The notes under the pieces were generated by a model, which was given only the letters and a program-made list of their open reading frames with translations, made no database searches and was not told the DNA's origin. The translations under genes and the position numbers were made by a program. Shown piece by piece: positions 1 through 51,450 of a stretch of DNA of 64,000 nucleotides; positions within the stretch are counted from its first letter, which is position 1, and every line of letters starts with the position of its first letter. Origin of the DNA: Ophelia neglecta (taxonomy: Eukaryota). The stretch covers positions 93,000,001-93,064,000 of the forward strand of contig OZ260661.1 of assembly GCA_965285935.1 (NCBI GenBank). The letters run 5' to 3'.

Positions 1-264
1 GACCTGTTGGTCCGCGTTCTCCACGCTGTCCGTTGTTACCGGGCCTTCCTGCTTCACCAGGACCGCCCTGGCTTCCTTGCTCTCCTCGTTGTCCACTGGG
101 TCCAGCAGGGCCAATTGGTCCGGGTGGTCCGACAGGTCCAGATTCGCCTCTCTCGCCTGCTGGGCCGGCAGGGCCCAGGGGTCCAGCCGCTCCTGCGGGA
201 CCGGTGGGGCCAGATGGACCAGCGCTTCCACGCGCTCCGGGAGTGCCAGGTTGTCCTCGTGGAC
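1..264 (-). CDS. Gene A collagen exon (truncated by window edge)
   Basis: tag acceptor then [12 protein letters not shown]... Confidence 0.9.
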
Positions 265-3200
265 CTATGCGAAGAGTTTTGAAAAAATATCTTCATCGAG
301 AATTTAGTATGATTTGTTTTTTAGCCAGGCTAATCATGTAAAAATAATATTTAAATATGCTATTATATTTACCACATAATAACTGCTTTCATGATGTGTA
401 TATCTATAAGGTCCTGGATTAATACTCAACATATGAACTCCTAAATCTATTGCACCTTATTATTAAGTTCAGTGAAAAAGCCTACCACTAGGTCCTGATG
501 GCCCTGGCCCTCCTCTCTCGCCTGGCTCGCCTCGGGGACCTGCAGGTCCGGCGCTGCCCAAGGAGCCAGTGGATCCAGGTGGTCCTACCGGACCCCTTTC
601 TCCTCTCTCCCCTATAACAATTGCAATGATTTTAATGTAAGTATTATCCCGTTATCGGTATGTAGACATTAATGGTAAATAATTCAGGTTACAAGCAATC
701 GATCTATGGTTATGGAATATTTATAAGTCAAGACCAATAGAATGATATATAAAGGCATATTTAACTATTAGAAAGTGAAGCTTCATACCTGGCGTTCCTG
801 ATTGTCCTCGTTCTCCAGCCGGGCCTAATGGTCCGGTTGGTCCTTGGGGTCCTTGTTCTCCAGCCGTTCCTCGAGGTCCTAATGGTCCGGCTGGGCCTAC
901 TGGGCCTCGCCTGCCTGGTTCTCCATTTGTACCTGGTGGTCCAGACGGTCCGGCAGGACCAGTAGGGCCCCTTTCTCCTCTCTGTCCAGGCTGTCCGCTG
1001 GGCCCAACTCCGCCAGCTGAACCAGGCTCCCCGCGCTCTCCCTGTGGACCTGCAGGTCCAACAGGGCCAGACGGGCCTAGCTGTCCAGACTCGCCGGCTG
1101 GTCCTCGCTCTCCTCTCTCTCCTGGAGTGCCTGGTTGTCCGCGCTCACCTCGGGGTCCAGGCTCTCCTACTTCTCCTGTGGTGCCTGCAGGGCCAGCTGG
1201 TCCGGCTTCTCCTCTCGGGCCTGGCGAACCTGCCTCTCCCGGAGATCCAGGCTGGCCGCTTGCCCCCTGTTCTCCTCTTTCACCAGCTGGTCCGGCGGGA
1301 CCGGCTGGGCCTAAAGGACCAGAAGAGCCCGGAGGTCCGCTTGGACCCCGTTCGCCTCTGCTTCCAGCAGGTCCCGATGGTCCCCTGGCTCCGGGTTCAC
1401 CTGGCTGTCCGGGCTGACCACGCTCGCCCGCAGCTCCTGCGGGTCCGGCAGGTCCTCTCGGTCCTGTACGTAATAATCAAATTACTTTTTATTGCATGTT
1501 AGGCAAATGCGTAGGCAAATAAGAACGATCACATCGAAGACATAAGCATTTTCATGTATAAGTTGAATGTAAAGAACAAGCTTAGTTCCATAGGAATTAA
1601 TAAGCTGGGAAATTTATTTTCAGTAATTCTTGTTTTTCTTTGGTTTCCCATACCTACCTTGTCTGCCAGGTGATCCTGGTAAACCTGATTCACCAAGAGA
1701 GCCCGGTGGTCCGGTTTCTCCACGGGAACCTTGTGCTCCGGCTGGTCCAATTGGTCCCTGTGTTCCAGGGGATCCATCAGAGCCTGCTGTGCCTGGGGTT
1801 CCCCTTTGACCCTGCTCTCCAGGGCGGCCCACAGCCCCTGTGGGACCACGACCGCCGCCAGCTCCTGGTGGGCCCGAGGGTCCTGATGGTCCCGCGGGAC
1901 CGGAAGGTCCTTGTAAACCTCTTTCGCCTGGTGTACCAACTTCTCCGGCAGGGCCAGCAGGTCCACGTTCACCCGCAGGTCCTTGTGGACCCAATGGGCC
2001 GCCAGGTCCTTCAAACAACAAAACAAGGTAAGATTAATTCATTATTTAATGGCCATCCGGAAATGTAGGTTTAAAAAAACATTAATAGGATTGGTACTGC
2101 TTTTTAGCTGATATTTTATTTATGAAAGCACTTAAGAATTTTGAGTTGTATGGCTTTGTAAACCTGGGTATTATGCCCCTAGTATACACAGGCTTTCAGT
2201 GTATGAGTGAGTGAGCCAGTACCTGGACTGCCTGGAGTTCCTCGCTCGCCCTGCTCTCCTCGCTGTCCTCGCTCTCCGGCGGCTCCAGCTGGTCCGAGCG
2301 GCCCTGTTGGTCCGGTGGGTCCGGATGGGCCCCTCTCACCTCGGGGTCCAGCGGGACCGGCAGGTCCTACTCCGCCAGCCTCACCCGCGTTTCCAGGGAT
2401 TCCGCGCTCTCCTGAAGGCCCGGCAGGTCCGGGTGGCCCGGTTTGTCCTAGAGAGTAGACAAGTACATTGAAGATGCCATGCATTATGACTTCAGTAACA
2501 CGTATACAAGTCCACTGTTAAAAATACGGCTAATTTAATTCATTTTATACAATAATAAAATTGCATTTGTTTTTCTTCCGATCTTTAGGTAGGCTAATCT
2601 ATCTGTCAAACCCATTTTTAATAAATTGTTTTGGACACATACAAATTCTTTCTGTCCGTGTAGAACAGAGCTTATTTAAGGTGAGTTAATTAAAGATCCT
2701 TAGATTAAAGATTTTGCCGAACCCGGTGGTTACAACGATTCATAATATATGTCTGCGTCTGTTCTATAAAAAATTTATTTCTTTTATTTCTTTAAATAAC
2801 TTGCACTTCTAATCGGTTGAAATCTGAACTTCTTACTGGGTTTAACTTGTGTTTTACTAGTATAAAATGAATTACCCCCCGGTTAAATTAGCAAAGATTT
2901 GCTTCGCTGCCGTTGTCAGTTTATTTATTCAATCTATATTATTTATTAAATTGAGACTTTATTTGATGATATTAAGCAATAGTTCGCGTGAATTAATTGA
3001 AGATTCAACAGGCGTTATCATGGCGGATCATAATCATAATGAGAGAAACATGTATAGTGTGTATGTCTTCCCTGTAATTAATAGGAAAGCATCTAAATAA
3101 TTATATAATTAATCAATCTAATTACCAGAGGATCCATCACGGCCGTCTTCACCAGGCTCGCCGGCTGGTCCAGCCGGTCCGGCTGGCCCTCGTGGTCCGC

Positions 3201-6200
3201 TCTCTCCTTGTGGTCCTGTAGGTCCCTGTGGGCCGGAGGGCCCGTCAGCGCCGGCTGGTCCTCTAGGTCCCGTGGGACCCGGTAATCCGGCCGGGCCGGC
3301 TGGTCCGGCCTCGCCTGCGGGACCGCGTGGTCCTGTAACGGTAGGACCGTCCCTGCCAGGTTGGCCAGTTGGTCCACGGCTTCCTCTCTCTCCAGGCTCA
3401 CCGCGTTCTCCTGCTGGGCCGGCAGGTCCTCTCTCACCAGGCTGTCCGGTAGGTCCCGATGGGCCATCTTCACCTAGACAAAAAAAACAATTGAAAAGAC
3501 ATTTAGAGCCGCGAGCAAGGGTATGTGCGTTCCATGGGCACACTGACGAAAGCTTTCATAATCAAAAACACCAAAGAAACGTGGTTAATATCATTACACA
3601 TTTCAAATGTAAACGCATAATAGGTATAATATTTACCTCTTGATCCCTGGGTACCCCTCTCTCCTTGAGCACCACGCTCGCCAGCGGCTCCCGCAGGCCC
3701 GGATGGACCTGGCTCGCCTCGGCTACCAGCCGGTCCGGCGGGTCCAGTTGGCCCTCTTTCACCAGCAAGTCCTGGAGAACCGCCTTCACCGGTTTCTCCG
3801 GATGGACCTGCAGGTCCTGAGGGTCCAGCAGGTCCGACAGGTCCAAGTGGTCCACGTGCGCCACCAAGACCAGGTCTTCCTGACTCTCCCGCTTCGCCAG
3901 ATGGTCCAGAGGGCCCAGTGGGCCCTGGAGGTCCGATTGGTCCAGGTTCACCGCCTTGTCCTGTTGGTCCTCGGGGACCGGACTCTCCTGCAGATCCGTC
4001 GGGTCCTCTTTCCCCGGGTGGCCCAGTCTGTCCACCAGAGCCTGGCGATCCGCGCTCTCCGGCAGGCCCAGCAGGCCCTGGCCGTCCGTCAGGTCCAGTT
4101 GGCCCTGAGGGTCCTGCGCTTCCTCGGGCTCCTTGCTCCCCAGCAGGTCCGCGTGGGCCTTGCTCGCCGGTTGGTCCTGGACCTCCACGTTCGCCTGAGG
4201 GTCCCGCAGGACCGCGTGATCCAGTAGCCCCTGTAGTAAGTGACAAATATTAGTAAAACAATCTTAAAATCAATGTTTAGTTTCTAACAGTTTCCCAAAG
4301 CCAATACATCCATATAAAATATACTACTATGAAAATCAAACACTTTTAGAAACTGAAATGCAGATTCAGAGATGTTAAATATCTTTAAACTTTACCTGGT
4401 AAACCTACAGGTCCCCGTGCGCCTCCGCGTCCGGGTTCTCCTCTCGGCCCAGCAGGTCCTGCAGGTCCCGCCGGTCCGGTTGGTCCAGACTCACCAGGAG
4501 GTCCCTGAATGCCTCGCTCACCGCCGCCAGTAGCACCAGCAGGACCTGGGAAAAAGATAAAGGATTACAGGTCATTGTGGCATTCTTCACCCCTGACTGT
4601 GATGCCACAAAGCCGCCATGCATATAACTTAATTGAATTGCGTCCAACATAATCAAGCCTTTATAAAAAGAGTCTTTCATATTAATTGATTGAAAATTTT
4701 GTTATAGCAAACCAAGGCTGCGATGACTCCTTCCTTGGTGTGGAAAACATACAAGAAGGGGCTAGGCCAAGGGCCAGTACTTGCAAGACCCGCAATTATT
4801 ATCAACCCGATGGCATGTCACATCTTTAAGGTGTACTCAGTTCAAGAGTAGCAGACGGCAATTCAGCGCCCTCTGGTGTTCAAACTTATCTCAAAAAGAA
4901 ATTAACAGTTTATATGTGTACCTGGTGGTCCGACGGGTCCTGGCTCTCCACTCTCTCCAGGTTCTCCAGCTTGGCCTCGAGATCCACGAGATCCAGCCGG
5001 ACCTGGTGGGCCTACTGGCCCAGATTCCCCAGACTCGCCCGCTGGACCAGCTGGACCCGCAGGCCCAGTTTGTCCTCGAGTACCTTGGCCGCCTGGCTCA
5101 CCGCCAACTCCAGGTTCTCCGGCCGGTCCGGCCGGTCCTTGATGGTTAAAAGGGAGGATAATATTAAGTAATGAGTTATGAACATAAAATATATTTACAT
5201 AGCGATGAAAGTTAATACATGCATATTTTCAGGCAATCAGACACCACTCACCTGTTGGTCCCCTTGGTCCAGCCTGACCGGGAGGTCCTTGGCCTCCTCT
5301 CTCGCCAGATAACCCAGCAGGCCCAGCTGGTCCCAGAGGTCCTGGTGGTCCCACGGGCCCAGTGCCCCCAGGAATACCAGACGGTCCAGGCTGTCCAGTT
5401 GAACCAGTTGACCCATCCTGACCTGAGGGTCCAGTGGGACCGCGCTCTCCCGTAGGTCCAGCGGGTCCTCTTTCTCCTCGTTGCCCTCTTGGCCCAGTTA
5501 AACCAGATGGTCCCACTGGTCCTCGTGATCCTCTTTCACCGCCTGGTCCTGGCTGTCCTCTCGGACCCGTTGGGCCAGGTGGTCCTCGTTCTCCTGCTGA
5601 TCCGATACCACCGGACACACCAGGAGTTCCTCTCGGTCCTGCAGGTCCCAGAGGACCCGGCTGCCCGGGGAACCCGGCTTCACCTCGCTCGCCAGCTATT
5701 CCGGCTGGTCCTCTTTCCCCTCTTGGGCCTGGTGGTCCCACCGGTCCCACAGGTCCGGATTCTCCAGCAGTTCCAGGTGGGCCAGATGGGCCTAAAAGAA
5801 AGTACACGAAACAATATGCAGAAGGTGTCTAACAGGCATAATTCATGCATCGAGCCATAATTTTTTGAAGTACATCTGAATACAAATTAACCTAGTGTTT
5901 ACCTGCCTGTCCAGGGAGTCCATCACTTCCGTCTTGTCCAGGGAAACCAAGAGGTCCAGGGGGTCCTTGAGGTCCCCGTGAACCTTCCGGCCCAGCGGGA
6001 CCAGGGCCTCCTCGTTCACCGGGTGAACCTGGTATTACAGATTAACACAGCTTGACACATGCAGGGTTTCATTAGTCTAGGATTCGTACGAAAAGACAGC
6101 TAGGTCTATAGCGGTATATTTTATATTTGAAAGGCGTATAGGCTTATTTTTCATCTTTAATCAAGCCTATTTAAGAACAATCTCATGTTTTCGGAAAAAA

Positions 6201-9200
6201 AATTAACAACATTGCTGGGTATTATTAGATAATACGTCTCAAACATAGGGTTATTGATTGAACTGTAGACGTGGTATTACCAACTGAGCCGCCAGGTCCT
6301 CTCTCTCCCTGCGCGCCAGCTGGTCCGGCCGGTCCGAGTGGGCCTGGACGTCCCGTTGCACCAGTTCCACCCACCTGCCCGCGCTCTCCACTCTCTCCTC
6401 TAATACCGGCGGGTCCTCGTGGGCCTTGTTCTCCCTGCTCCCCGGGACCGCCGGCTTCTCCCGCAATGCCTCGTGGGCCTGTGGGTCCGGCTGGTCCTCG
6501 TGGACCTTGTTATGAAAAAATATACACTTATTTAACAAATAATGGACACAGCTACGTGTTGAGTTTAACTGCAATCATTTTAAGCGGACAGAGAGTTACC
6601 GGGATAATATATTTTGGACAGCTTCTTGCATAGCTTTACATTAGAATTTTAAAACACCTGTTGGTCCGACGGGTCCTCTTGTTCCGGGCTCTCCAGCAGG
6701 ACCTGCGGGTCCGGCTGGTCCGAGAGGTCCTGTCGGGCCTCCAATGCCAGGACCACCTGAGGGTCCCCGCTCGCCCCGCTCCCCAGACGCTCCGGGAGGT
6801 CCCAATGGCCCAGTGGGCCCTGATGGGCCAATGCCTCCAGCGTCACCGGCTGGACCACTGGGTCCAGTGGCTCCCGGAGGTCCAATCTGTCCGATTGGTC
6901 CTGACTCTCCTACTTCTCCACTGGGTCCTGGTTGTCCTCGGGGTCCCGGGCGGCCAGATGGGCCCGGTCCGCCAGGAGAGCCTCGCGGACCTGACTCTCC
7001 ACTCGCTCCCGCAGGTCCAGTTGGCCCTAGTTAACGATAAACACTACGTAGAGACACTTGCGCTCCTCACAATACCTTTACTATGTATACAGGTCTTTTT
7101 TTTTCAGTAATAGCCTATCTAAAGTCTAATGTACATCAATCATCTCGAGTTTTCTCGAGTCTCACTTTTCTATACATCTTTATTGACATGATAAAGCGTC
7201 AAATTATTAAATCCAAGCCCTTAAAAGCTCAAGACCTAACCTGTTGGACCAGCTGGTCCCGCCTCCGAGCCCCTGGGTCCTTGTGGTCCTCGTTCTCCTG
7301 GTGGTCCTACAGGCCCTAGGGGTCCAGCCTCTCCGGCTTCTCCAGAGGGTCCGGGTGGTCCAGCAGGTCCTCTTGGACCTTGGAAGCCCGGGCCTCCGAC
7401 TGGACCCGGTAGACCCGTCTCACCAGACTCCCCGGCTGGTCCTGCAGGTCCAGTTGGCCCGAGTGGGCCACTAGGACCGGAAACACCTGCCTCTCCGGAT
7501 GGCCCGGAGGGGCCGGCTGGCCCGCTTGGTCCTGCTAATCCTTGTTCTCCTGGAGGTCCCCCTTCTCCCGCTGGTCCACTGGGACCGGCTGGTCCTGTTG
7601 GACCAGGCAGTCCTCGTATCCCTGGTCCTCCACCTTCACCTGGCTGACCTGCGGGTCCAGCAGGGCCACGCAGTCCAGATTCACCTGGCGCGAAAACAAT
7701 TTAGAAGTTAATTCCGAGTGCGTGATGAGGTGTAAACTTCCTCTGCTTCAATGAAACGTAGAATGTATCATACATACTATTTGAGCTTAAAGATAGATTA
7801 CCGAGCTACTGCTATCCTTGTTGAAAAAACAAGTCGTATTTTGAAATAAGGCTAATTTACTTTGTGTGTACCCTACCTGGAGGTCCCGATGGTCCCGAGA
7901 TGCCAGGAGGTCCTGGTTCGCCTCGTTCTCCGGTGGGGCCGGCTGGCCCAGCTGGTCCGGGTTCAGAGCCTGGTGGACCGATCTCTCCACGTGGTCCAAG
8001 CTCTCCTCGCGGTCCAGGGGGACCAGTTGGTCCTGCTGGTCCCTCCGGTCCTGACGGTCCCGGAGGGCCGGATTGGCCGTCAAATCCTGGGCGACCTGCT
8101 TCACCTGGTGGTTCAACAAATATGTACATCAATAATAGCCAATTAGGTTATTATACTTGCACTTGCTGGCACATTATTAACACAAAAATCCTTTCAGAAA
8201 TACACCATTCAATTTTCCGTAGACATTTGTTGAGAAATTATGTGAGCGTACCTGGCCCTCCTGGGAATCCTGCTGGTCCTCTCTGTCCTCTGGGTCCTAA
8301 TGGTCCCAACGGCCCAGGTGGTCCCACTGGTCCTCTCTCACCGCGCTCTCCGGACTCTCCAGCAGGTCCTATTGGACCGGTGGGTCCCAGGCCACCGGGT
8401 CCGCCCGCAGGACCTGCGGGGCCTGAAGCCCCTGTTGCTCCGTTACTTCCATCGGCTCCCGGCGGGCCTGGTGGCCCATCAATTCCACGGGTTCCCTGTT
8501 CACCTCTTGGCCCGGATGGTCCTGAAGGTCCAACAGGTCCCCTCTCACCACCGAAGCCTGGTCCTCCAACAGGTCCCGCTGGTCCTCTCGGCCCCGGAGG
8601 TCCGACATTGCCAATGCCTCCAGGTGGCCCAGATTGTCCTGGTGATCCGGATGGCCCACTTTGTCCGATGGGTCCAGGTCCGCCTGGCCCTCCTCGTATA
8701 CCCTGGGGTCCTGCCGGTCCCCTTGGTCCTACTGGTCCAACAGGACCGTCGGCACCTGGCGATCCAGGTCCCCCTGTCTCACCAACAAATCCAGGTTGAC
8801 CCGTTTGTCCCCTCTCTCCAGGAAAGCCGGCGGGTCCTGCATGGTGATCAGTCAAAAGCGAACAGCATTAGGCTATAATTTATTATGCTAGATTAAGATT
8901 CCTGGTGGGAAATTACTATAAAGCGTGCTCAATAATACTTTGGGAATAAAATATTTTGTGTTAACTAATAACTCTGGAGAGTTGCAAGGGAAAGTCACAT
9001 ATAGATGGTTTGGAAATGAAAGCCTTTTTCGTTTCTCGAAACGAGCACCAGAGATATTGAATTAAGAAGGAAAACTTCAGGTCTTGAAAGAATTATATTC
9101 ACTGTAATGTAAATTGGCTGTTTGCCACTAATGCGTACCTGGTGGTCCGACTGGACCGATTGGTCCACGCGGTCCTGCTGGGCTGCTTCCTGGCGGGCCT

Positions 9201-12200
9201 GACACGCCGGGCTCGCCGGGTGGTCCTGAAGGGCCGGCAGGTCCTCTGGGTCCAGGTTCACCCGCAGGGCCGCTTCTACCCACCTCACCTGCAAAAAAGC
9301 AATTTATTTTGAACACATGTAGATCAAGAGAGCGTAGCACTAGCTGTTGTGGTCCTATCTAAATCTTACCGCAATACGAAATCGCCAACTGCGCAGATCA
9401 TAGAAGTAGTTTTGTATTTCTTACCGCTTGATCCGGGTGATCCAGCTGGACCGGAGGGGCCGGTCGGTCCACTTGGCCCAGACGGTCCTCTTTCCCCTGA
9501 AGGCCCAGCTGGTCCAGCAGGTCCAGGTCTGCCTGAGGGTCCTGTTGGTCCCCTTTGCCCAGTTGGTCCTGATTGAGTTCCATCGGGTCCCCGTGGGCCA
9601 GTGGGCCCTGGCGGGCCGATGGGTCCAGGAAATCCCGGGCCGCCGCTGATGCCAGGCGGGCCTCGGAAACCGGGCTCACCTGAAGGTCCGGCTTGACCAG
9701 AAAACCCTGGTCCGCCTGGTCCTCCTGCGGGTCCGGCCGGTCCGCGTTGTCCTCGGTTACCTTAAAAAGAATCAAATATAACAATAGTTCCATTACAAAT
9801 GGTTGAGCAACTCAGTCCCAATGTTTCTGTTCCCAACTTCCGGTTATTTATTCTAGACATGTTAGGCCTAGGCCCTAATAGATTTCTTCAAAGTAGGAGT
9901 AGTCATATTCCACATATGTGACACTATATTATATTATATTTTTTACCTGATGGTCCAGTTCGTCCAGGTGGTCCAATTGGTCCTCCAGGTCCTGCAGGTC
10001 CTAGCTGTCCACTTGATCCTGGAGGCCCTACGGGGCCTCTTCCTCCGGCCGGTCCAACGGGTCCAGCTGGTCCAGCAGGTCCGGATGGTCCTGCTAGGCC
10101 TACTTCACCTGGCGAGCCAGGTCCACCCGGAGGCCCAGGAAATCCGGGTCGGCCGGGTGGGCCACGTGGGCCGGGTTGACCTGGTTGGGAGCCGCGTGGC
10201 CCTGTACCGCCTTTGTCTCCAGCGGGTCCTCGTGGCCCCGCTGGTCCAACACTACCTGGGGGACCACTGGGTCCTTGAGGTCCGGGTCGTCCAGCTGGGC
10301 CGAGAGGTCCTCGTCCGCCGGGAGGTCCTGTAGCACCTGAAGAGCCTGGTGGCCCTCGAACGCCATCAGTGCCCGGTGTCCCGGCCGATCCGGCAGGACC
10401 AGTTCCTCCTGTTGCGCCTCGGGGACCACCTGGTCCAGGCGGTCCTATAAGAAAACCCATGGTATCAAGCGCTTGACATGCAATTCAGATTTAATAACCA
10501 TACAAATTTAACCTTTAATTTACGGTTCTACAAGGAGGTTGCTATTTATCTCCTTTTAAAGAAGAACAACTGACAGCCAATCAAATGTATTTTTAAAAAG
10601 ATTTGTCTTTCTTTTAAATATAGATATACATTTCTATCATTAATAGGCCTTATATGAATCTAATTGTGAATAAAGAAGTAAAATCAAGAAGGTCAATGAC
10701 AAGGTCTTACGTTATATAAAATCAAGCATATTCCGCTTCATGTATGGTGTAATTAAGACTAATTAAATTATCGTTTTCTAATTTGATATGAACCGCATTT
10801 GGGTATATTTTATTCATGCTGTGCATGTGTAATGATTAGGTGCATGAGGGTAAGGGACATTCATTTGCAACAGCGATTTGTTTCAATTTTTAAAGATAAA
10901 TGGGATATCGAATGACGTCCTGCAAAACAGCAATTATATACTATACTAGCATCTATAGTTGAAGATATTAATAATACAAAGGTTGTCTTTCACAGAAAAA
11001 TCTTACAAAACACAATTTTAGCCCCTTCGAGCGAAGTTTCCTGTTATAACTTATCTTTCCGGAAATATTTTAGAACACTTTATCTGTGAAAGACAGCCAG
11101 TGGTAAGGAGAAAGGGCACCCAGTTTGAAGAGACAAATCATTTTCATACTGTGCTCAAATATGTTTCATCGTGCAGGGATAATTTGTGAACTAAAATCAG
11201 ATGGTCACTGACAATGGTGTCAGAGTTACTAATTTTTCAGTGCGGTGAGTAGTACAGAGATAGCTCATTCTGGCGCAGACGATACATGCAAGAGATAAGT
11301 AGCAGTGACCATATGGTTTTATTTCATTTTTAAAGCCTGCAGTAAATATGGATTTATGCGTTTAACTTTCAAACATATAGATCAAAATCATGTCATTTAT
11401 CATCTTTGGGTGCGCTTCATCCTTGATGTGACTTATATTACAGTGATTTGTGCATATTGATGTTGTTTGATTGCCAATATAGCCGCGCAATATAAAGAAC
11501 ACAGCGCAACGCAAGAAAATGTATAGAGGGTTGGGGCGTTGCGGTAAACTTCGTCCTATACCTGGAATGGGTACGGGGCCTGGGGCTACAATGTATCCAG
11601 GACAGATGGTCCTCATCAGTCTTTCGACCAGGATCTCTCTCTCCCGAGCGGAGCCATAGCCCTCAGATACGTAGTAGGCACGACTGGTGGTTGAGGCGAT
11701 CACCTGGAGGGCCCCCAAATTGATTCCCGATCCAAAGCCTACAGAGGTGATGACGATGTTGTTATCCACTCTAGCTCTATTCAGCTGAGTTACAAACTCT
11801 CTCTCCGGCTCTCGGCCCATGATGACGATGGCGAAATCGGGGATTCTTGGTCGATCTCCCCGGCCTCCACTGAATATGCTATCGGTCATCACCCGGAGTC
11901 CCTCGTCCAGGAAGTGATCGGATCGACTCATCCTGCTAAGGGTATTGATTCTTTGTCGCACCTCCAGATTGGTGTAGTAGCGATCAAGGTAGAATGACAC
12001 CTCCCCTACGCTACTATAGCGGACGGTTGAAAAATGAACATTAGGCTCGCCGATAGTGAACTGTTGGGAGAGGAGACTTGCAAGATCTCTCATTGAGTCC
12101 CACAGCAGGTTGGAGAGGTCCTCTCCGGCGTCCAGCACTATCGCCACATCGCTGAGGTTCCGACATCCTGTGCGGATATGAAAAGCAATTATTGTTTGAA

Positions 12201-14882
12201 AAGAAAAAGCGCCAGCAAGCGTGCCGCATCTAGCGAACCGCTAGCCATCACCTACGCATGCGCAACAGAATAACGAGAAGCGATGCATGTTGAACGCTAC
12301 ACGACAAACACAATGTAAATAAACCTCTAGAGTACACATGTGCCATACAGGAGTTAAACCAAAAGTAGCAATCACGCTTTTTTAAATAGTAAATATCTCA
12401 ATAGGCGTATTCACATTGCGTGTGTCGTGCAATGAAACGCAGCATAAAGCGCACGCGCAGAAGCCATACTTGTACAGGAACCCAGGTGATGGAGTACCCG
12501 AACAGGCTACATTTTATCTTTGGAGCTTCCTCTTCTTTGTTTTCTGGCGAATAGATATCTGCCTACATTGAAAGGAGGAAGCGCACATCACATAGAGTGA
12601 TGAAGGTCAAGTTCTAGCAGAACGCGTTGTAGACAGAGGAGAGGCGGAGTGATATCTGTACGCCCTAAAGATCTCGCAGGATCATATGCTTTTGACAGAT
12701 CAAATGAGATAAAGGCATGCAACGATCCGATGAAGCTGAAATTTAAGAAATATTTGATGGTTGTCAATGGACACGCGCACACACTAAATGCTCGAGTAAA
12801 ATTACCTGTTCCGAGTACACGTTGGTCGGATCCTGAAAAATGCGAATATTCCTCGTCATTAATTAAGGAAGCCATTGATATACATGTGTGGACAGAATTT
12901 GGGAAAATAATTCACTTGATTCATGGAGATCACGAAAACTTGTTTGTTCGCGAATAATCTGAAGAACAAGGAGACATTTTATTTAGGCCCTATTGATAAT
13001 TAACGAAATCGGGAATTTCATGAATTTCGACCAATGACGTATCAAGTGTTCGACGGCGACTTTATCTTCATGGGTCTACATGTATTAAACTTTACTGTCG
13101 CACACGATTTATGTGTTTTAAATCATTCTATTAAACAATACATGTACTACAATAATGACTAATGACCTATACCTAATCTAAAGGCCACGCCACAAGCATT
13201 TGAAGAAGGCTCTGTATGTACCAGGAAGTTGGTACCAGGAATGGGGTATCCATCTATTACATGCCACTGGCAGATATAGGCAGTGAGATAAGAGTGAGGA
13301 GGGTTATCACAGAAAATGGCGATGTATCTATATATTGAGGTGGAAGATGGGATTGAGCGTATTGAATACGAGATGAAGGGCCTAATGACTGGATATGGAG
13401 AGAGCTGGATGGGGTTGGGGAGACCCTCGGCCTGGCGGTTAAAGTGAGACGGGCAGCCCCTGGATATCCCCTTGTTCCGATGCTTAGCTTGTGAATATTA
13501 GATGTGGAATGGATGGGTTTGTCATAGTGAGAAGATATAATCGAAACATCGCCTTCCAAATGTGTTGATTTGAAGATCATATTGAATATTAGGGGACTAT
13601 AGACCGGGGTCTTTTCGAAATTCATGAACAACAAATAGGCTTACTAAATGATTGCTATACATTTATTAAACCCATGTGCTTCTTTTTGTAATGGAATTCA
13701 CGAAATTCACGGAAACATCGACATGATTATATCATTTGTGTTGGGAATTCATTTTTCTTTTTGTCATCATTTCACTTGTGTAATTGTTTCCTTTTATAAG
13801 TTTGAAATGGTTGATTTTTTAATCTCTAATTCACGAATTAACAGTGTTCATTATCTCCCAAATCCTGTCCATCTCTGTGGATTGTACAAGGCCAATTATT
13901 CTCAGAGTTCTAGGCCTCTGACGTCATCTCTCTGACGTCATCTCCAACTCGCGATAAGGAACTCCTAAATCTCAACTCTCTAATTACGCAGTAAATATTA
14001 TGAAATTAAATTTTCTAATGGCAAAATATGAAAATAAACTGTGAGAAAATGTTAGAAATTAAGATAAAATTCAAAGTAGTCGAAATGAAATTTAGTGTAC
14101 ATTTGACATGTCTATAGTTGCACATATTATGTATAATCGTTTTAATTCAATAATCGTCGGATCCAATATAAGTCGAAGAAAAAGAAGACATAATAATTTG
14201 CCTTCAATGCAATAAGTATGAAGTATCAAAAGCAGACGATATTTTTGCAACTAATAAGACGAAATGACAGGCATCATAAACTAATTCATTTCTCTACTTG
14301 TGCAGGACTATTTGTTTAAAGATTAAACAAGATATGTAAGTCTGTTGAATCAAAAAGTGGGAAAAAAAAACTACTCGAAGAGTAAACTGATCTTGGGTTG
14401 TATTTCTGCTTATTATTTCATTCATCAATAAGATTAAGATTGGAAATTGCTTCTATGCAAAATGGGACGCATTCTTATTTCGAAAATATTCGAGTGATGT
14501 GACTGGTTTGCAGTGGTAACTCAGGTTATTATCTGAGATGTTATGTGTAAATAATTAAACAGGGAATTAGAACTTGGTCCAGAAAAACTCATTCATTTTA
14601 CAAACAATCCAATGATCAGTAAACTCTAGAAACAGATATGTAAAGAAAACGGAAATAAATATAATTAAAAAAAAACGTAACAGTTAACAGTTGGTTTAAC
14701 ATGAAATTAACTATAAGTAAATCGAAGTACTATTAGAACTAAGAAAGAACGTGACACTAAACTAAAGGTTGGTGCGTGGTCTAGATTATCTTACCTTGTG
14801 CATCTATGACTGTCACGAAATTGAACATGAAGATGAACGCCAGAGCACAAGCTCTGGCGTCCGCTAATCTTGGCGGTCGCAT
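1..14882 (-). CDS. Gene A: secreted giant collagen alpha chain with N-terminal vWA domain (multi-exon, 3' end outside window)
   Basis: Spliced GT-AG model: 14882-14795 (signal peptide), 12167-11562 (vWA), then Gly-X-Y exons 10444-9947, 9760-9425, 9288-9139, 8836-8252, 8104-7877, 7684-7241, 7026-6658, 6505-6281, 6028-5903, 5791-5252, 5137-4922, 4545-4396, 4230-3637, 3473-3126, 2447-2223, 2008-1658, 1463-789, 611-486, 264-<1. All junctions are phase 1 and keep the frame; ~2150 collagenous residues lie in the window. Confidence 0.93.
486..611 (-). CDS. Gene A collagen exon, 126 nt (14 triplets)
   Basis: Gly-X-Y, AG/GT flanks, phase 1-1. Confidence 0.9.
789..1463 (-). CDS. Gene A collagen exon, 675 nt (75 triplets)
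   Basis: Gly-X-Y, AG/GT flanks. Confidence 0.92.
1658..2008 (-). CDS. Gene A collagen exon, 351 nt (39 triplets)
   Basis: Gly-X-Y part of ORF 1620..2021, AG/GT flanks. Confidence 0.9.
2223..2447 (-). CDS. Gene A collagen exon, 225 nt (25 triplets)
   Basis: Gly-X-Y part of ORF 2179..2484. Confidence 0.9.
3126..3473 (-). CDS. Gene A collagen exon, 348 nt, with GPTVTG interruption
   Basis: Gly-X-Y part of ORF 3118..3543. Confidence 0.9.
3637..4230 (-). CDS. Gene A collagen exon, 594 nt (66 triplets)
   Basis: Gly-X-Y part of ORF 3503..4246. Confidence 0.92.
4396..4545 (-). CDS. Gene A collagen exon, 150 nt, with G-G-GER break
   Basis: [14 protein letters not shown]...GLP, AG/GT flanks. Confidence 0.88.
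4922..5137 (-). CDS. Gene A collagen exon, 216 nt (24 triplets)
   Basis: Gly-X-Y, AG/GT flanks. Confidence 0.88.
5252..5791 (-). CDS. Gene A collagen exon, 540 nt (60 triplets)
   Basis: Gly-X-Y part of ORF 5229..5807. Confidence 0.92.
5903..6028 (-). CDS. Gene A collagen exon, 126 nt (14 triplets)
   Basis: Gly-X-Y, AG/GT flanks. Confidence 0.88.
6281..6505 (-). CDS. Gene A collagen exon, 225 nt (25 triplets)
   Basis: Gly-X-Y, AG/GT flanks. Confidence 0.9.
6658..7026 (-). CDS. Gene A collagen exon, 369 nt (41 triplets)
   Basis: Gly-X-Y, AG/GT flanks. Confidence 0.9.
7241..7684 (-). CDS. Gene A collagen exon, 444 nt, with GSEAG interruption
   Basis: Gly-X-Y, AG/GT flanks. Confidence 0.9.
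7877..8104 (-). CDS. Gene A collagen exon, 228 nt, with GSEPG interruption
   Basis: Gly-X-Y part of ORF 7857..8132. Confidence 0.88.
8252..8836 (-). CDS. Gene A collagen exon, 585 nt (65 triplets)
   Basis: Gly-X-Y part of ORF 8238..8855. Confidence 0.92.
9139..9288 (-). CDS. Gene A collagen exon, 150 nt, with GSSPAG interruption
   Basis: Gly-X-Y part of ORF 9128..9340. Confidence 0.9.
9425..9760 (-). CDS. Gene A collagen exon, 336 nt, with GTQSG interruption
   Basis: Gly-X-Y, AG/GT flanks. Confidence 0.9.
9947..10444 (-). CDS. Gene A first collagen exon, 498 nt, with GSQPG interruption
   Basis: Gly-X-Y part of ORF 9924..10460. Confidence 0.92.
10981..11098. mobile_element. Small MITE-like element with ~20-bp terminal inverted repeats
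   Basis: GGTTGTCTTTCACAGAAAAA ... TTTATCTGTGAAAGACAGCC (18/20 inverted match) in a gene A intron. Confidence 0.5.
11562..12167 (-). CDS. Gene A vWA domain exon (606 nt, phase 1-1), degenerate MIDAS
   Basis: [17 protein letters not shown]...[10 protein letters not shown]...[17 protein letters not shown]...ITSVGFG...LQVIAS...ICPG; typical vWA pattern with flanking Cys. Confidence 0.92.
12806..12832 (-). CDS. Candidate 27-nt phase 1-1 microexon of gene A (GSDQRVLGT)
   Basis: tttttcag acceptor and CAG|gtaatt donor; in frame between the signal and vWA exons; no transcript evidence. Confidence 0.35.
14795..14882 (-). CDS. Gene A start and signal peptide (exon spans 14930-14795)
   Basis: [29 protein letters not shown]|G; G|gtaag donor; polypyrimidine-cag acceptor at 14931. 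Confidence 0.85.
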
Positions 14883-15158
14883 TGTGCGGGTCACTTATTT
14901 TGCGGATCTATAACGTTTTCTTCACAAAATCTGACAAAAAGAAGAAAATATTTTGTGTTGTATAGTTAAGCAAAAATGTTTTTTGAAATCTGAGATATTC
15001 TGTTAACATAAGAGGATATTAAATCTTAGTTAGATGCCAAGTTTATTTTCTGCGACCTAGTATGGTTTGACTCTCTGGCGCAATGCGATAAATGGTAGTA
15101 GTAAACGAAAGAACAACTACAAAGAACAGCAGAAAGTAGTGTATGGTATAATTACCTT

Positions 15159-15194
15159 CTAAACATTCAGTCCCGCGTGACTATCTCGATACAT
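15159..15194 (-). promoter_or_regulatory. uORF MYRDSHAGLNV* in gene A 5'UTR
   Basis: ATG...TAG followed by AAG|GT; positional counterpart in gene B. Confidence 0.6.
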
Positions 15195-15230
15195 GTCCTT
15201 CAGACCCGCTAAAATGTGTTTTTTTTACTC

Positions 15231-15331
15231 AGCCCTATAGGCCTGGTCGGGCCTTGTCTGGACAACTGGCTCCCGCCGTTCACGAGGCTCAGCTAAATCA
15301 GACAAGGCCTTCCGACGACTCGCCTTGGCTA
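15231..15331 (-). promoter_or_regulatory. Conserved 5'UTR RNA stem-loop element, copy A
   Basis: 11-bp stem GGCCUUGUCUG/CAGACAAGGCC (15309-15299 with 15260-15250); shared with gene B copy. Confidence 0.8.
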
Positions 15332-18300
15332 CCGTTCGGAAAGAAAACCGAACTCACCTGGAAAACATAAACGGAAAACATGAACACATCAGATCGTGAT
15401 CACAGATGTGTGCTATCGGTATTTCCTTTGGCGGGGGTGACATTTTTAGGAAATTCAAGATGATATGAATAATTCATTCAAGATAATATTTAAAATTCAT
15501 AAATCATGTAATAGTTATTTAAACTTCGCATTTCCCATCATTCTCCAACCATGTTTGTACACCCTGCAATTAATGGTTTAATACAGAAAACAAGTACGTG
15601 GCTTATGATTTGCAAGTTAATAAAAAGTATCTTAACACATTGGTTTCGTTTGTATAATTTATATCTACATCGTTCCGGGGACAGAAGAAACACAATTGTT
15701 TATTTAACCTTGTTATAATAAAATACTGCGCTGGTAATGTTTGACTTTTGATATTTTTATTTCAGTTTATTTTACCAACTACAAAACTACTGATGAAAAC
15801 AGGTCCTACTAGATAGAAGCGAGGCGCACACCCGTAACGTGTCAGCCTGACCAAGTTTTATCACAAACTGGCAAATCGTGACCACAAAATACAAGTCGTT
15901 ACTATGTCTGTCTTTTTTTGACGTCTGCAGTTTGAAGGGCTCATGATGAACGAGCTTGTGGTTTTTAACTTTATATGATGAATGAAAACGACTTGCTTTT
16001 AATCTAAAAATACTACAGAGAAATAGTTTGGTTACATAACCAAAACCAAAAAACACTTATGTATAACTTTACCAGCGACAGTGTTTTTTCAATAATTTCA
16101 GACAAGTAGGTTTTCTACTTTATTTTATTTTTTTAATGCGTGAACCGGTTGAAAAGTTTATTCAATAAGCCTAGAGATGTAAAAATACTGACAAATTCGG
16201 GATGCCACAGCCCATTGACATGAGACTCCTTGCCAAAATATCCCTTTTTGTTACTACCTTACCATGCAGGACAATAGCTTCCCCCATCTCCAAAGATGCA
16301 GTGACTTAACCGACAAAGGATTCAATTTATCGTTGCCTAGACGTCAGGCGAGTTAATTACTTGCTTGTATTTAAAATATTAATTAACGCTTAATTGTCGT
16401 CTTTATTTTGTAGGACCGTCTCATTAGCATACACAGACGCTAATTCAACACAAGAATTGTAGCTTAAAAGTTTATACCTTTCTATATTTAACAAATATAT
16501 GTTAAGTTTTTACACGTTAATGACTCCCCGCTTTAGCCTTGTGCCGTAGGGTGATCTTGTATTTAAGGGACACGCGCCACGATTGTGGAATACAATCCCA
16601 CAGAACACTTAGGCAATGTTCTGTGCTGGGTGTTTAATAAAAGATATCTAAAGTAATATCTAATGAAAATTGCCTTCGATTTGTTATGTCTTAATATGTA
16701 AACTAATGTTATTAGTGGCAGTGTTCAAGTAATCATGGGACATACTTTACCCTTAGTTAGGTTTCATAAATAATATTAACCAGGTCTTCCCTGCCTAATT
16801 TACTATTATAACAAAATTACTTGTGGCTTTGCTAATTACACTGTAGTATTAATGATAAATAAAACTCGAGAACCAATGTCGGGAAAACTTGTAAAATACA
16901 TAATGAAAGCAAGCATCTGTTTCGTTATTTTATTCCTACGAAGAGGCCTGAGGGGTATGATGAGACACGTAAATATACTTTAATTCTTCAACATGACAAA
17001 TTGACATAATCGTTTCAGAAATGATACGAGTAGCTTGCTGGAGGCTATAGATTCGACATTGTCCATCCATTCGTTTCTCTTTGGCTGTAGGTTATGGAAC
17101 GTATTTGCTATAAATATGACACCCTGACTGACAGGTACGGGTCTGTATAGAAGCGCAAGTCTTTACTATTTCAACTATAGGCATACTATAGTATTTCATA
17201 ACCAAACATAACGTTTTGTCCGACAATATACAGGCCTAGCTACATGAATATTGGTAACACCGCAGTTCAGCAATGCTAACAACAAATTTCACTGAGTATG
17301 AAATGCTGCTTGTATTCTGAGAATCATCGATGCTATATTCACATTTTCATCATTGATTAATTTCGTGGAAACCAAAATATATATGCATAGACTAGATTTT
17401 CTACCTGTGAAGAACTAGACCTACATGGGCATGAGACGAATTCTGCTGGTCAGTGCGTTCATTGAAGAACGGACATTTACCAGATGAATGAATGTTTAAA
17501 GGACGCCCTGCCGATTTATTTAAAGTTTGACTGGAATAACAACAAAAGACTTGCTTCAATATAAAGCCTTAGTGTCATCAGCACCATGATTGAGCTTTTA
17601 GTTTCAACCTTATATAGAATGGGCGCCAATGCATAAAAACCCTTCGTGCCACTGAATGGAAGTTGGAGAGATCGGAAGGGAGTTCAACATAGGTTAACTC
17701 TACAGGAGTTGCTATGGGTGGTCAGAGATATGTGCTCTGGTCCTTCTTTATTGCAAAATTCTTTTTTTTTTCTTCAGATAAAAGCTTCAGAATGATTTAG
17801 ATAATTAAGCCCGGCACTAATACAAAATGTTCACGTGTGATAACCAAATATGGCTTTTAAAAACAGGGTGATAATTTTTCTAGTGTTTATTATTGTCGTC
17901 TGCAGATGAATGTCAATTTACAAGGACGTATATTTCTGTTCCTTATTTCATTTACCCCAAGAAAAGCAACAAGTTTTGAAGGTCATGACCAGATTTCACT
18001 TGGAAGATGGGGAGATGACTTTCTTCCCTCCATCCCCACCCGGACGCCGCCGAAACTCCCCTGTGACCACTCATGGATGGAAAAATAATGGCTATGGACA
18101 AATCTGCCAGCCTCCAACCGACACAAAAACCGCCAATATAGGCATCTAAACATATAAATCATCGTATCCACCATAGCCATTTTCATATAGACCTATGGTG
18201 CCAGGACTATCTATTGTGCCAGGACTATCAGTGCGAAAATCAGAGCGTTTGGGTAGCAAAGGAGGATATATATGCCTAGAATGTTATACACTAAGGGTGG

Positions 18301-21300: not shown

Positions 21301-21935
21301 CCTAAATCTAGATGTGCATATTACCTGAATCATAGTTTCAGCTTCTCATGCCTTACATTGTAGCGGGGGGGGGGGGGTCTACCAACAAGTAATTTAACTC
21401 TCGACTGCTATCATTGCATCAGCTGTGCCAAAGGAATGCGGCTTTGCAGCTCACTGAGGCGTCCCCTTGTTGGGTTCAGAAGTAGCTTGGGGTCAGTGCC
21501 GAAGGTCAACCCAAGCGTCTGATTGGGCGCTGACTCCAGATTCCAGGTTCCCTTACAGGCCCTTCTGACAATGTCTATATAAGGGTGTCCCCGAAAAAAC
21601 TGTCCGGCCTTTTCGAGTCTACACAATGACGTTACTGTACCTAATGGTCTATCACTGTCAGGAGATGCTTGCTTTTTGGTGCGGTGGAATGCACACCGAA
21701 ACTGTTCTAAATCAGGTTTGGGGTAAGCTAACTTCCCAGGCCCGCAGCCTCAGGGTCCTCGTAAATGTAGGCCTTACCGATACGTTTTCTGGGTAATATC
21801 GTTTGATTTCCGGGGGGGGGGGTGCAAAGATTTTGCTCGATTTTCACTCGACACGAAGAAACAACGGGGCGGTTTAACGGCGGCTTTCATCGTTTCTCTA
21901 ATAGCACATTATAGAGCGTTTGACTGTATGGTCAA

Positions 21936-31000: not shown

Positions 31001-31693
31001 ACAAAGCACTAACCCACCTCTCACCTGATCTTCAGTACGTACCTAACTCAATCAATCTTACATATACCTAGCCACCTCATGGCTGACAATTGGTTCAGTA
31101 CATGTTTTTTCTAATGCTCAGATTCCAAAGCTACTGTTATGACATGAGACGACAAAAACCCCTGAGATTGGTTCAACCAGTGTGTAACACGGGGTAATAC
31201 CTATGTCTAACCCACTGTAGTCTCCTATATAAACACCTAGGTGCGGGCTTATAAACCAGATAACATCAGGACAATAAAAAGTGACACAACCACAAGTTCG
31301 TTCGCTATACATCTGTACTAGAAAAATGACTGGATCGGCCAGAAACGGAGACCGCATTTTGAAAACAAAGGTGCCCTTAATAATGTTTTGTGGCTGAAAA
31401 GCTGACAGTATAACTTAAGATATTTAAAATTGATGAGGGGGAACTTTTAAAACAAGGATGGTTATAATGATGCTTTGTATTTTGTTTTTGCGGTGAATAG
31501 AACATGGTTAATCAAATCTTTAGATATATAAAACAGAATTTTGAATTGAGCATCCAACCCTAAGATAAAATGGTTTGGTAAATGCTGTTCCTAAAAACAT
31601 CTCCTTCCATCTAGGTAAGTGTCGATATTCCATCAAGGAACCATCTCGCACCAACAGCATAAACATCTTTTCCCTCATCGTGGATTTATAGTA

Positions 31694-31864: not shown

Positions 31865-32046
31865 TAATGCCAAAAAGATGATAATTTCTGGTGATTGTAA
31901 TTGTTGTCTGAATGAATGTGAGGGGGGAATTAAACCACCAGCTAGAAAGCAAAGGTTCAATCACCTGAGAAACACAACGACTCCTAATCATAACCTAGAA
32001 TAAGCTGGATAAGCATGTTTAGACCCTATAAGTATAAACTCCACTA

Positions 32047-49410: not shown

Positions 49411-50967
49411 TCTATCACCTTTTATATGGGGAACGTCCATATTGAATAGGCCTATGGTGAAATAAATAGTTTTCACCCATCTCGCTATTCCTTTGCCGAA
49501 TACCATTTTTGATGGTAGCTGATTTTGAGACTTATAATTTAGCATAGTTAACTTACTAAAATTTAGGGTACCGTAGGGCATTTCTAAATAGGTACTTACG
49601 TACTAAACATCAATACATGTATATGTTTGTTATTTAACGCAAACGTCGTGTCTTACAGGCAACGAACAGAACTATCATCGGCACAATGCCAGCGTGATGC
49701 AATATTGGAAGTCTATACTGTAATTGACACCTTGAATATCACAGTGAACTTGTTGACAAACAGATAAAAATTGCTGAATTGAATGTTACATTGATAGTTC
49801 ATTCCTAGACTAATATTATGTTAATATCGGCCACCGAAAAGCAAAAGAATGTACACTGTACTTGGTAATTAAAGAAAAGACTACAGGAAAAATATTTGTA
49901 TACTTCTACAGCCAGAGTTCAGTCAACAGGGTTTTCTAGGAAAAATATACCTGAAACAGACAAAGGACGTGCAACGAAGCATCCTTTTAAAGAAAGACAT
50001 TGCTTCGTACTGCCTAATTGGATGATTATAGCGGCTTTACTACTGGACAATAGGACAATGCCAGATATCTTTATTTAAAAAGTATCACTGTTCGATATAT
50101 TCAAATGAAATACAAGCTTTGAAATGCATACTTAATGTTATTCCTGCAATGATTCCAGATTATTATTTTGGGTATTCATTTGCAAAAATAACATGGCCTT
50201 TCTGCTGACAGCTAGCCTGTGTCACAATAGGCCTAGTGTAAATTGTATTTTAAATTGTAATGCCTATGTACAAGTACAACAGGTGACCAGAAGGTCATTG
50301 TGATCATTATGCCATTAATATAAAACTCATTTGGCGTGGAACCAACTACCATAAATATCAAAACATATTTCGCCTTATTACCTTTAAACCCACCCACAAC
50401 GGTTAATTTGGTGCCAATATTTTTCATTCTAGTAAGCCCTATTCAGTAACATAAATAGTTCATTCATATGTTACAACTATGTATATGATTGAATTTTCGA
50501 CAATTATACTGAGTTGCATGTATGTCTATTACTGGATTGTACCAGTCCTATAGGTGAACCAGGGTTCACCTTTGTGTGGTTAAGCTCGCAAAAATGAACA
50601 GCCAAGGGAATTTCTTAACGTATTACTCGGTGCTGTAAAACATGGACAAATCCTACGATTCAGACGAGTAAACAAATGGTTTTTTTGGTTTCCCTTTACT
50701 ATTTCTTATTTTCAGTCAATAAATAACAGTGGCATACATATATATAAGTCCGTATTGCCTCCTGTTTAGGAGAGAACAGTCGTAGGGGTTAAACTAATGT
50801 GCTTTTAAAATAAAGTTAACAAGAAGTAAGTTATTTAAGTAAAATTAATGTTGTATACAGAGATACTACAATGCGCGATTTTGTCTTAAAATTTATTACT
50901 TATCAGTCAGAGGATCTAAACAACATTTTCTTTTGCTTTCAGGATCCCTTGAGCCTGTTGTTGAAGC

Positions 50968-51060
50968 GGCCAAGGTAGTCCATTGGAAGGCCTTGTCTGT
51001 CGTTAGCTACACCTGACAACTCGGGTGTTGGTTGTCCAGACAAGGCCCGTTTATAAGGCC
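50968..51060 (+). promoter_or_regulatory. Conserved 5'UTR RNA stem-loop element, copy B
   Basis: GGCCUUGUCUG (50989-50999) pairs with CAGACAAGGCC (51037-51047); upper stem ACACCUGA-caac-UCGGGUGU. Confidence 0.8.
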
Positions 51061-51126
51061 CGTCAAAATTGTTTCTATTGTCTGGTGCTTCGCCAGACAA
51101 ACTTAAAACGGGCAGCGAAGAAAGAA

Positions 51127-51156
51127 ATGAATAGTAGTCCCCTACTTGACCAGTGA
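51127..51156 (+). promoter_or_regulatory. uORF MNSSPLLDQ* in gene B 5'UTR
   Basis: ATG...TGA followed by AAG|GT. Confidence 0.6.
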
Positions 51157-51338
51157 AAGGTAAGAACTACTGCCAGTGTAGTAGTATGAACAACTTTCTA
51201 CACCGAACTACTATTTAAGTTAGTAGCGTGATGTGTCGAGTTCCGCCACAATCAAAGTAGACTCGTGTAAAATGTTTTTTTATAATTTGAGGAATACCAT
51301 ATTTAAAATATTTCCTTTTTTCATTGTTAGAGTTGAAG

Positions 51339-51450
51339 ATGGAACCCCCGGGGTCTTCTTATAGAAGGCCATTCGGGTCACGTGAGACCTCACGTACCTT
51401 TGTTGCTCTACTGTTTTTCCTGAATGTGATAATTACAAGCGGTCAGAGAT
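51339..51450 (+). CDS. Gene B start and signal peptide (exon spans 51331-51450)
   Basis: [37 protein letters not shown]; T|gtaagt donor. Confidence 0.85.

What the first reader, a model, noticed from the sequence alone, without database searches (positions are those of the whole stretch)
15156..15194. Positionally conserved uORF ending exactly 3 nt before the splice donor in both UTR exons
Seen: gene A ...CGGGtctGAAGgacATG TAT CGA GAT AGT CAC GCG GGA CTG AAT GTT TAG AAG|gt (11 aa, ends L-N-V); gene B (51127-51159) ...CGGGcagcGAAGaaagaaATG AAT AGT AGT CCC CTA CTT GAC CAG TGA AAG|gt (9 aa, ends L-D-Q). Both lie just 3' of the conserved hairpin. Gene A also has a second, overlapping uORF (MFRRFCEENVIDPQNK*) that stops 8 nt before the main ATG. 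Known: vertebrate fibrillar collagen 5'UTRs combine uORFs with the stem-loop. Inference: hairpin and uORF form one translational control module.
Basis: partly seen in the sequence, partly recalled or inferred. Interest (0 to 1): 0.7.

Follow-up and report, generated by a model that had tools for sequence, protein, structure and literature searches.

The report
Conserved hairpin in giant collagen mRNAs
Two head-to-head giant collagen genes, likely of an annelid worm, each have a short upstream reading frame ending at the same spot, but that match is likely chance; what they truly share, also with a related collagen sequence that has no such frame, is a 60-base hairpin predicted to fold in the mRNA leader and likely to help coordinate making the two chains.

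Summary
In detail: an 11-codon (gene A, minus strand) and a 9-codon (gene B) ATG frame each stop 3 nt before a predicted donor. The claim of a conserved hairpin-plus-uORF module is weak. The two uORF regions do not align better than shuffles (p 0.08-0.41). The shared stop offset arises by chance in 1-2% of shuffles, and some exact coincidence in 11-25%. The one outside homolog found (L081, an intronless VWA-collagen contig) keeps the hairpin arms identical to gene A (21 and 19 nt) yet has no ATG in its 217-nt leader. The conserved unit is therefore the ~60-nt hairpin: two copies found in a 762-Mb genome, no Rfam match, better folding on the sense strand, apical stem kept with different sequence. 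The genes encode near-equal ~8,740-residue collagen chains of the annelid giant type. Best reading: an invertebrate working analogue, not a member, of the vertebrate collagen 5' stem-loop, likely protein-bound (a LARP6 gene is present), with the uORFs as incidental or lineage-specific dampers. No RNA data: splicing, translation and binding are all inferred.

The parts
15159..15194 (-). Gene A uORF1, 11 codons plus TAG; in frame with the main ORF after predicted splicing; stop 51 nt before the main ATG
   Evidence: sequence
14891..15166 (-). Gene A uORF2, 16 codons, crosses the predicted intron 15155-14931, stops 8 nt before the main ATG
   Evidence: depends on inferred splicing
15250..15310 (-). 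Gene A leader hairpin: 11-bp base stem, 3x2 internal loop, G-U-rich middle stem, apical stem-loop
   Evidence: -36.5 kcal/mol, z -5.9
15156..15357 (-). Gene A predicted leader exon, 202 nt; its acceptor AG is followed at once by GTGAGT
   Evidence: inferred from splice signals
14794..14930 (-). Gene A next exon: main ATG at 14882, signal-peptide-like [29 protein letters not shown]
   Evidence: signal peptide judged by eye
11560..12165 (-). Gene A VWA domain exon
   Evidence: Pfam PF00092, E 2.4e-21
1..10445 (-). Gene A Gly-X-Y exons; continue about 29 kb beyond the window start; about 8,736 residues in all
50943..51159 (+). Gene B predicted leader exon, 217 nt
   Evidence: inferred from splice signals
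50988..51047 (+). Gene B leader hairpin
   Evidence: -35.3 kcal/mol, z -6.1
51078..51100 (+). Second, 10-bp hairpin in the gene B leader that repeats the TTGTCTG/CAGACAA core
51127..51156 (+). Gene B uORF, 9 codons plus TGA; stop 11 nt before the main ATG after predicted splicing
51331..51450 (+). Gene B next exon: main ATG at 51339, signal-peptide-like N-terminus
51650..52585 (+). Gene B VWA domain 1, on two exons
   Evidence: Pfam PF00092
53835..54443 (+). Gene B VWA domain 2
   Evidence: Pfam PF00092, E 1.3e-34
54701..64000 (+). Gene B Gly-X-Y exons; continue about 25.6 kb beyond the window end; about 8,748 residues in all

Best explanation
The two short upstream frames are in the sequence but are likely incidental or lineage-specific, whereas the conserved element is a 60-base hairpin predicted to fold in the mRNA leader of both giant collagen genes, where it likely binds a protein that coordinates making the two equal-length chains. 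Shown: both uORFs, the shared hairpin sequence, its presence in an outside homolog without any upstream ATG, the two ~8,740-residue Gly-X-Y regions, and a LARP6 gene in the genome. Inferred: splicing of the leader exons, folding in vivo, assembly of A and B chains into one trimer, protein binding, and LARP6 as the binder. Where the uORFs are translated they would lower initiation at the main ATG: gene B's stop and gene A's second stop lie 11 and 8 nt before it, likely too close for efficient reinitiation, so the main ORF would depend on leaky scanning.
For: Hairpin: found only at these two places by 4 pattern searches of the 762-Mb genome (other near-matches scored at most 20 bits against 82-91 for the three true copies). 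1 of 4 metagenome hits, L081, is an intronless 981-codon signal-VWA-VWA-collagen frame with the hairpin 55 nt before its ATG; it shares runs of 21 and 19 nt with gene A, 18 bases more than the pattern asked for, while its VWA domains are only 20-30% identical to A and B. All 51 of 51 pair cells are standard pairs, two G-U-type pairs are invariant, one pair changes on both sides; the sense strand folds 6-8 kcal/mol better in 3 of 3 copies and each keeps an apical stem of different sequence. uORF: absent from L081; A and B post-hairpin segments align no better than shuffles (p 0.41 whole, 0.09 and 0.13 for the last ~50 nt, 0.08 for the peptide); any exact coincidence 11-25% by chance. Chains: 8,736 and 8,748 residues, Pro at X 0.38 and 0.43, like the 7,719-8,859-aa annelid collagens of PMC12403961. 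LARP6-like gene with La and SUZ-C motifs.
Against: Only 3 hairpin copies; covariation is not significant (167 of 500 shuffles reach it). In the vertebrate element the stems are not sequence-specific and the loop is (PMC12288881); here the base stem is the invariant part (11 of 11 pairs) and the 5' side of the internal loop differs between A and B. The same stop offset has only a 0.9-2.0% chance taken alone. L081 has a GTG-started 10-codon frame right after the hairpin, ending TAG-AGG, which could be a counterpart. Orthology of L081 is unresolved. Arms conserved with a free loop is also what a microRNA precursor looks like. No binding, splicing or translation was observed.
Confidence: 0.5

Rival explanations
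1. One reading: hairpin and uORF are one conserved translational control module in both genes; the uORF stop is held 3 nt before the junction by selection, and a hairpin-bound factor lets ribosomes pass or resume after the uORF.
For: [quoted passage not shown]
Against: No upstream ATG in L081; no significant alignment; relative to the hairpin it is gene A's second uORF (+83) that matches gene B's (+79), not the first (+55), and uORF1 of A is in frame 0 while B's is in frame +1; near-cognate starts are common (6 in L081's 55 nt). Dozens of later junctions remain, so a stop near this one would not by itself avoid nonsense-mediated decay (general knowledge).
Confidence: 0.2
2. The hairpin is an exonic microRNA precursor or a Drosha/Dicer-type substrate hosted in the collagen leaders; the uORFs are incidental.
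For: About 60 nt; arms of 21 and 19 nt identical between gene A and L081 while loop and flanks differ.
Against: No consistent extra basal stem in the three contexts; terminal loops of 4-5 nt closed by a kept stem; no Rfam match at E up to 5; arm motifs absent from the supplements held for three annelid papers (whether those files list miRNA sequences was not checked); hairpin intact in a spliced-looking contig.
Confidence: 0.13
3. The hairpin acts on the RNA but not on translation: exon inclusion, localisation, stability, editing, or pairing between A and B mRNAs through their identical arms.
For: Invariant base-stem sequence fits sequence-specific duplex recognition or cross-pairing; gene A's acceptor is followed by a perfect donor, so the whole leader exon could be skipped.
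Against: A-B cross-pairing is predicted to be less stable than two separate hairpins (duplex -60.1 against -71.8 kcal/mol); position in the 5' leader in 3 of 3 copies points to initiation.
Confidence: 0.12
4. The inverted arms are a DNA element, such as paired Smad-type CAGACA boxes (motif recalled, from no call), shared by the two genes.
For: TGTCTG/CAGACA occurs 2, 4 and 2 times in the A, B and L081 leaders against 0.7 per kb between the genes.
Against: Invariant G-U pairs, sense-strand folding bias and a kept apical stem are RNA features; any inverted repeat doubles its motif.
Confidence: 0.05

Closest known systems
Vertebrate collagen 5' stem-loop (COL1A1, COL1A2, COL3A1) bound by LARP6, with two short uORFs (PMC4813270, PMC4615758, PMC12288881; passages read)
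   Same: Stem, internal loop, stem in the 5' leader of collagen mRNAs; shared by partner chains; short uORFs nearby in A and B; a LARP6 gene whose La motif keeps the six residues named as important (equivalents of F114, R121, K130, L131, K139, K166).
   Different: About 60 rather than 48 nt; holds no AUG and ends 55-142 nt before the start; base stem invariant in sequence; small 3-4 by 2 loop, with CAG paired in the stem; uORFs lie 3' of the hairpin and are missing in L081; hosts are VWA-bearing giant collagens. The reviews say the vertebrate element occurs in no other mRNA.
Annelid giant (cuticle-type) collagens (PMC12403961 section 12 and Table 1; PMC11766948 passages)
   Same: About 8,740 Gly-X-Y residues; Pro at X 0.38-0.43 and at Y 0.20-0.22, inside or close to the table's range for the long chains (0.33-0.40 and 0.215-0.33); globular ends.
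   Different: The section read gives no leader element, head-to-head pair, VWA head or membrane-type tail.
Head-to-head COL4A1/COL4A2 pairs (recalled, from no call)
   Same: Two collagen chains of like length, divergently arranged.
   Different: Here 35.6 kb lie between the leader exons and no shared promoter was located.
Exonic microRNA precursors (recalled, from no call)
   Same: About 60-nt hairpin, arms conserved, loop free.
   Different: No consistent basal stem, short closed loop, no Rfam family.

Membership tests
Vertebrate collagen 5' stem-loop (LARP6 element) | Stem-loop encloses the start codon | tested here: not met
   No ATG in any of 3 hairpins; ends 142, 120 and 55 nt before the main ATG
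Vertebrate collagen 5' stem-loop (LARP6 element) | Two stems flanking an internal loop | tested here: met
   Predicted in 3 of 3 copies
Vertebrate collagen 5' stem-loop (LARP6 element) | Unpaired U and A on the 5' side and C, A, G on the 3' side of the loop (PMC4813270) | tested here: not met
   Predicted 3' side is UC; the next CAG pairs in the base stem. A more open fold on binding was not testable
Vertebrate collagen 5' stem-loop (LARP6 element) | In type I or III fibrillar collagen mRNA | tested here: not met
   Hosts are VWA-headed ~8,740-residue collagens with membrane-type tails
Vertebrate collagen 5' stem-loop (LARP6 element) | Bound by LARP6 | not testable with these tools
   Only the gene's presence is shown
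Conserved uORF | ATG-to-stop frame upstream of the main ORF | tested here: met
   given the predicted splicing
Conserved uORF | Start and stop kept in homologs | tested here: not met
   0 of 1 outside homolog has an upstream ATG; orthology unresolved
Conserved uORF | Sequence or peptide similarity above chance | tested here: inconclusive
   p 0.08-0.41
Conserved uORF | Translated and affects the main ORF | not testable with these tools
   Needs ribosome profiling or reporters
microRNA precursor | Arms conserved, loop variable, about 60 nt | tested here: met
microRNA precursor | Basal stem of about 11 bp below the precursor and an open loop (recalled criteria) | tested here: not met
microRNA precursor | Mature and star reads | not testable with these tools
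   No small-RNA data available
Annelid giant cuticle-type collagen | 7,700-8,900 residues with a very long Gly-X-Y region rich in Pro at X | tested here: met
Annelid giant cuticle-type collagen | Found in the cuticle | not testable with these tools
   No expression or protein data

The most novel reading that the evidence does not exclude
Annelids evolved, apart from vertebrates, their own collagen leader stem-loop: a protein-bound (perhaps LARP6-bound) hairpin shared by a head-to-head pair of ~9,000-residue chains that synchronises their translation, with uORFs added in this lineage as the brake that the bound factor lifts.
Probability: 0.3. Interest if true: 0.75.

Novelty: new variant of a known kind. 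Interest (0 to 1): 0.5.

Why it matters
The collagen 5' stem-loop is described as a vertebrate invention found in no other mRNA (PMC4615758, PMC4813270), and what LARP6 binds in invertebrates is, to my knowledge, open. A second, unrelated leader hairpin conserved in giant collagen mRNAs would be a case of convergent control of collagen chain synthesis and gives a 60-nt RNA that can be tested directly for binding. The uORFs alone are ordinary. Searches that found no description: (no relevant paper; listing only), Rfam (10, 11); the library lacks most subscription papers, so absence from print is not proven.

Tried and rejected
No RNA holder listed: the run search gave 3 runs of one sample, none on record as RNA; laid on both leaders they are unspliced contigs, perhaps the assembly's source. 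They show 0 substitutions in the two leader exons where about 3.5 were expected from 30 sites in 3,945 nt (p about 0.03, clustering ignored; one insertion in a homopolymer run), and about 0.6 expected in the uORFs, which says nothing. Rfam: 4 and 2 chance hits, none on the hairpin. Viral and prokaryote collections: 0 hits. Three of 4 metagenome hits rejected: L078 lies between bacterial-looking genes, L079 and L080 in a repeat array. The RNA model found no further copy in about 600 kb of fetched stretches, which include other VWA-collagen regions on C8 and C1 whose 5' ends were not identified, so this does not show that those genes lack it; a 20-bit hit in L093 breaks many pairs and was rejected. 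The whole genome was not scanned with the model. Orthology of L081: collagen triplet alignment z about 0; VWA tree unresolved. Protein searches gave no close named ortholog. No upstream exon or promoter found between the genes. Read-through of uORF1 into gene A rejected: another in-frame stop follows in the next exon (sequence). Earlier findings of the scan: none in 4 look-ups. Acceptor scores and one donor score and exon edges were off by one base and were redone; main-ATG offsets for gene A are one short.

Full report
Setting. The window is G000:C1:93000001-93064000 of a 762-Mb animal genome. It holds the 5' ends of two divergent genes. Gene A (minus strand) has a signal-like exon, one VWA exon and Gly-X-Y exons from 10445 on; gene B (plus strand) has a signal-like exon, two VWA domains and Gly-X-Y exons from 54701 on. 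With neighbouring stretches the Gly-X-Y blocks sum to 8,736 and 8,748 residues, with Pro at X in 38% and 43% of triplets (block edges add a few residues each), and each is followed by an exon with a hydrophobic, membrane-type segment. PMC12403961 (section 12 read) lists annelid collagens of 7,719-8,859 residues with like proline use. An annelid source and a cuticle role are inferred from this, not shown.

The observation. Both frames are as described: MYRDSHAGLNV-TAG-AAG|GTAATT at 15194-15156 (minus) and MNSSPLLDQ-TGA-AAG|GTAAGA at 51127-51159. With the predicted introns (225 and 171 nt) removed, gene A's second frame reads MFRRFCEENVIDPQNK and stops 8 nt before the main ATG; gene B's stops 11 nt before it; gene A's first stops 51 nt before it. 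Donors and acceptors score like those of the collagen exons, but AG sites scoring 8 bits or more occur 0.6-0.8 times per kb between the genes, and the splicing was not observed.

Is the match more than chance? Shuffling the post-hairpin segments with the last AAG fixed, both contain a complete uORF in 48% of trials and share a stop-to-donor offset in 1.4%. With the spliced leader the figures are 79% and 2.0%; any exact match among seven features a reader might note (start or stop relative to donor, hairpin or main ATG, or length) occurs in 25%, or 0.9% and 11% when the number of ATGs is held at the observed 2 and 1 (3,617 trials). Similarity between the two segments is not significant: p 0.41 for the whole, 0.09 local and 0.13 global for the last ~50 nt, 0.08 for the last eight codons as peptide, 10 of 24 bases identical. 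The pairing of uORFs is ambiguous too: counted from the hairpin, gene B's ATG (+79, frame +1) matches gene A's second ATG (+83, frame +1), not the first (+55, frame 0).

The outside homolog. One exact-pattern scan of metagenome contigs gave 4 loci. Three are unrelated. L081 holds an uninterrupted 981-codon frame, signal-like peptide, two VWA-like domains, then Gly-Pro-rich collagen, where A and B have frequent introns, so it likely derives from an mRNA. Its hairpin shares unbroken runs of 21 and 19 nt with gene A, against 12 and 17 between A and B, though its VWA domains are 20-30% identical to theirs and the pattern searches show no third copy in G000. Its leader, 217 nt held and covering the whole stretch from hairpin to start, has no upstream ATG; the main ATG lies 55 nt after the hairpin. 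Shuffles give no ATG in 3% of 217-nt and 41% of 55-nt trials. Whether L081 is the ortholog of A (closer hairpin) or B (two VWA domains, higher scores) could not be settled; since both carry the uORF, either choice leaves it unconserved, unless L081 is a third chain type.

The hairpin. All three copies fold to an 11-bp base stem, a 3-4 by 2 internal loop, a 6-bp stem with two invariant G-U-type pairs, and an apical stem of different sequence closing 4-5 nt; z is -5.9 to -6.6, and the sense strand is 6-8 kcal/mol more stable in each. All 51 pair cells are standard pairs, with one change on both sides; with three rows this is not significant. Rfam has no match. Two haplotypes of one individual show no substitution in either leader exon, against about 3.5 expected: weak support for constraint on the exons, none on the uORFs as such.

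How it likely works. Shown: sequence, conservation, chain lengths, and a LARP6-like gene (La motif E 8.6e-26 to human LARP6 structures, SUZ-C motif) that keeps the residues PMC12288881 names for stem-loop binding (my mapping; such conservation may be general and is not specific evidence). Inferred: the two equal-length chains assemble together; a shared leader hairpin, stable enough to slow scanning, is bound by a protein that times or places their translation, as LARP6 does for type I collagen (PMC4813270, PMC4615758; passages). The uORFs, if used, would take some ribosomes; with stops 8 and 11 nt before the main ATG, reinitiation is likely poor (the abstract of PMC6614817, seen only in the listing, puts the mammalian optimum near 78 nt), so they would act as simple dampers.

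Comparison. It may work like the vertebrate collagen 5' stem-loop but is not a member: it does not enclose the start codon, lacks the unpaired 3' C-A-G, keeps its stem rather than its loop invariant, and sits on a different collagen class. It shows the arms-kept, loop-free pattern of a microRNA precursor but lacks a consistent basal stem. Motif searches of supplements held for PMC8915122, PMC12257675, PMC6160089 and PMC12403961 gave 0 hits (only these searches were seen of the first three papers, and files not held may list more). Full-text searches found no description. PMC11766948 (passages) describes annelid cuticle collagens as globular domains plus a very long helix.

Verdict. The uORF observation is accurate, its conservation unproven and contradicted by the one homolog at hand. 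The neighbouring hairpin is a real, cross-species conserved and apparently undescribed leader element of giant collagen genes. Interest 0.5, nearly all of it from the hairpin.

Noticed in passing
window 15359-15352 (minus): The predicted acceptor of gene A's leader exon is followed at once by GTGAGT, a donor scoring higher (6.9) than the exon's own (5.9); recursive splicing or skipping could remove hairpin and uORF starts together. Gene B lacks this.
   Followed up: partly
G000:C1, about 29 kb before and 26 kb after the window: Both giant collagens end in an exon with a membrane-type hydrophobic segment and a likely cytoplasmic tail, suggesting membrane-anchored precursors.
   Followed up: partly
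window 1-10445 and 54701-64000 and beyond: The two Gly-X-Y regions are almost the same length (8,736 and 8,748 residues counted), as expected of partner chains of a helix about 2.5 micrometres long.
   Followed up: partly
window 51078-51100: A second small hairpin in gene B repeats the core of the main stem; both A and B also repeat AGGCC about 10 nt after the main hairpin.
   Followed up: partly
G000:C8:55.51-55.56 Mb, C8:62.02-62.04 Mb, C1:106.92-106.93 Mb: Further multi-VWA collagen genes, those on C8 with Thr-rich triplets; no hairpin found in the stretches fetched.
   Followed up: partly
L120 (G000:C8:21.685 Mb): LARP6-like gene, La motif to SUZ-C motif in one open frame.
   Followed up: partly
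window 31692-31866, 37678-37868, 38323-38745: Copies of a ~180-nt repeat with inverted TACAGT ends, in tandem at 38.3-38.7 kb; MITE-like.
   Followed up: no
window 12604-12957 (+) and 21411-21749 (-): Short open frames that look like mobile-element remnants; no Pfam match.
   Followed up: partly
L079, L080: Metagenome contigs with an array of long perfect inverted repeats sharing the hairpin's outer arms; judged unrelated.
   Followed up: no
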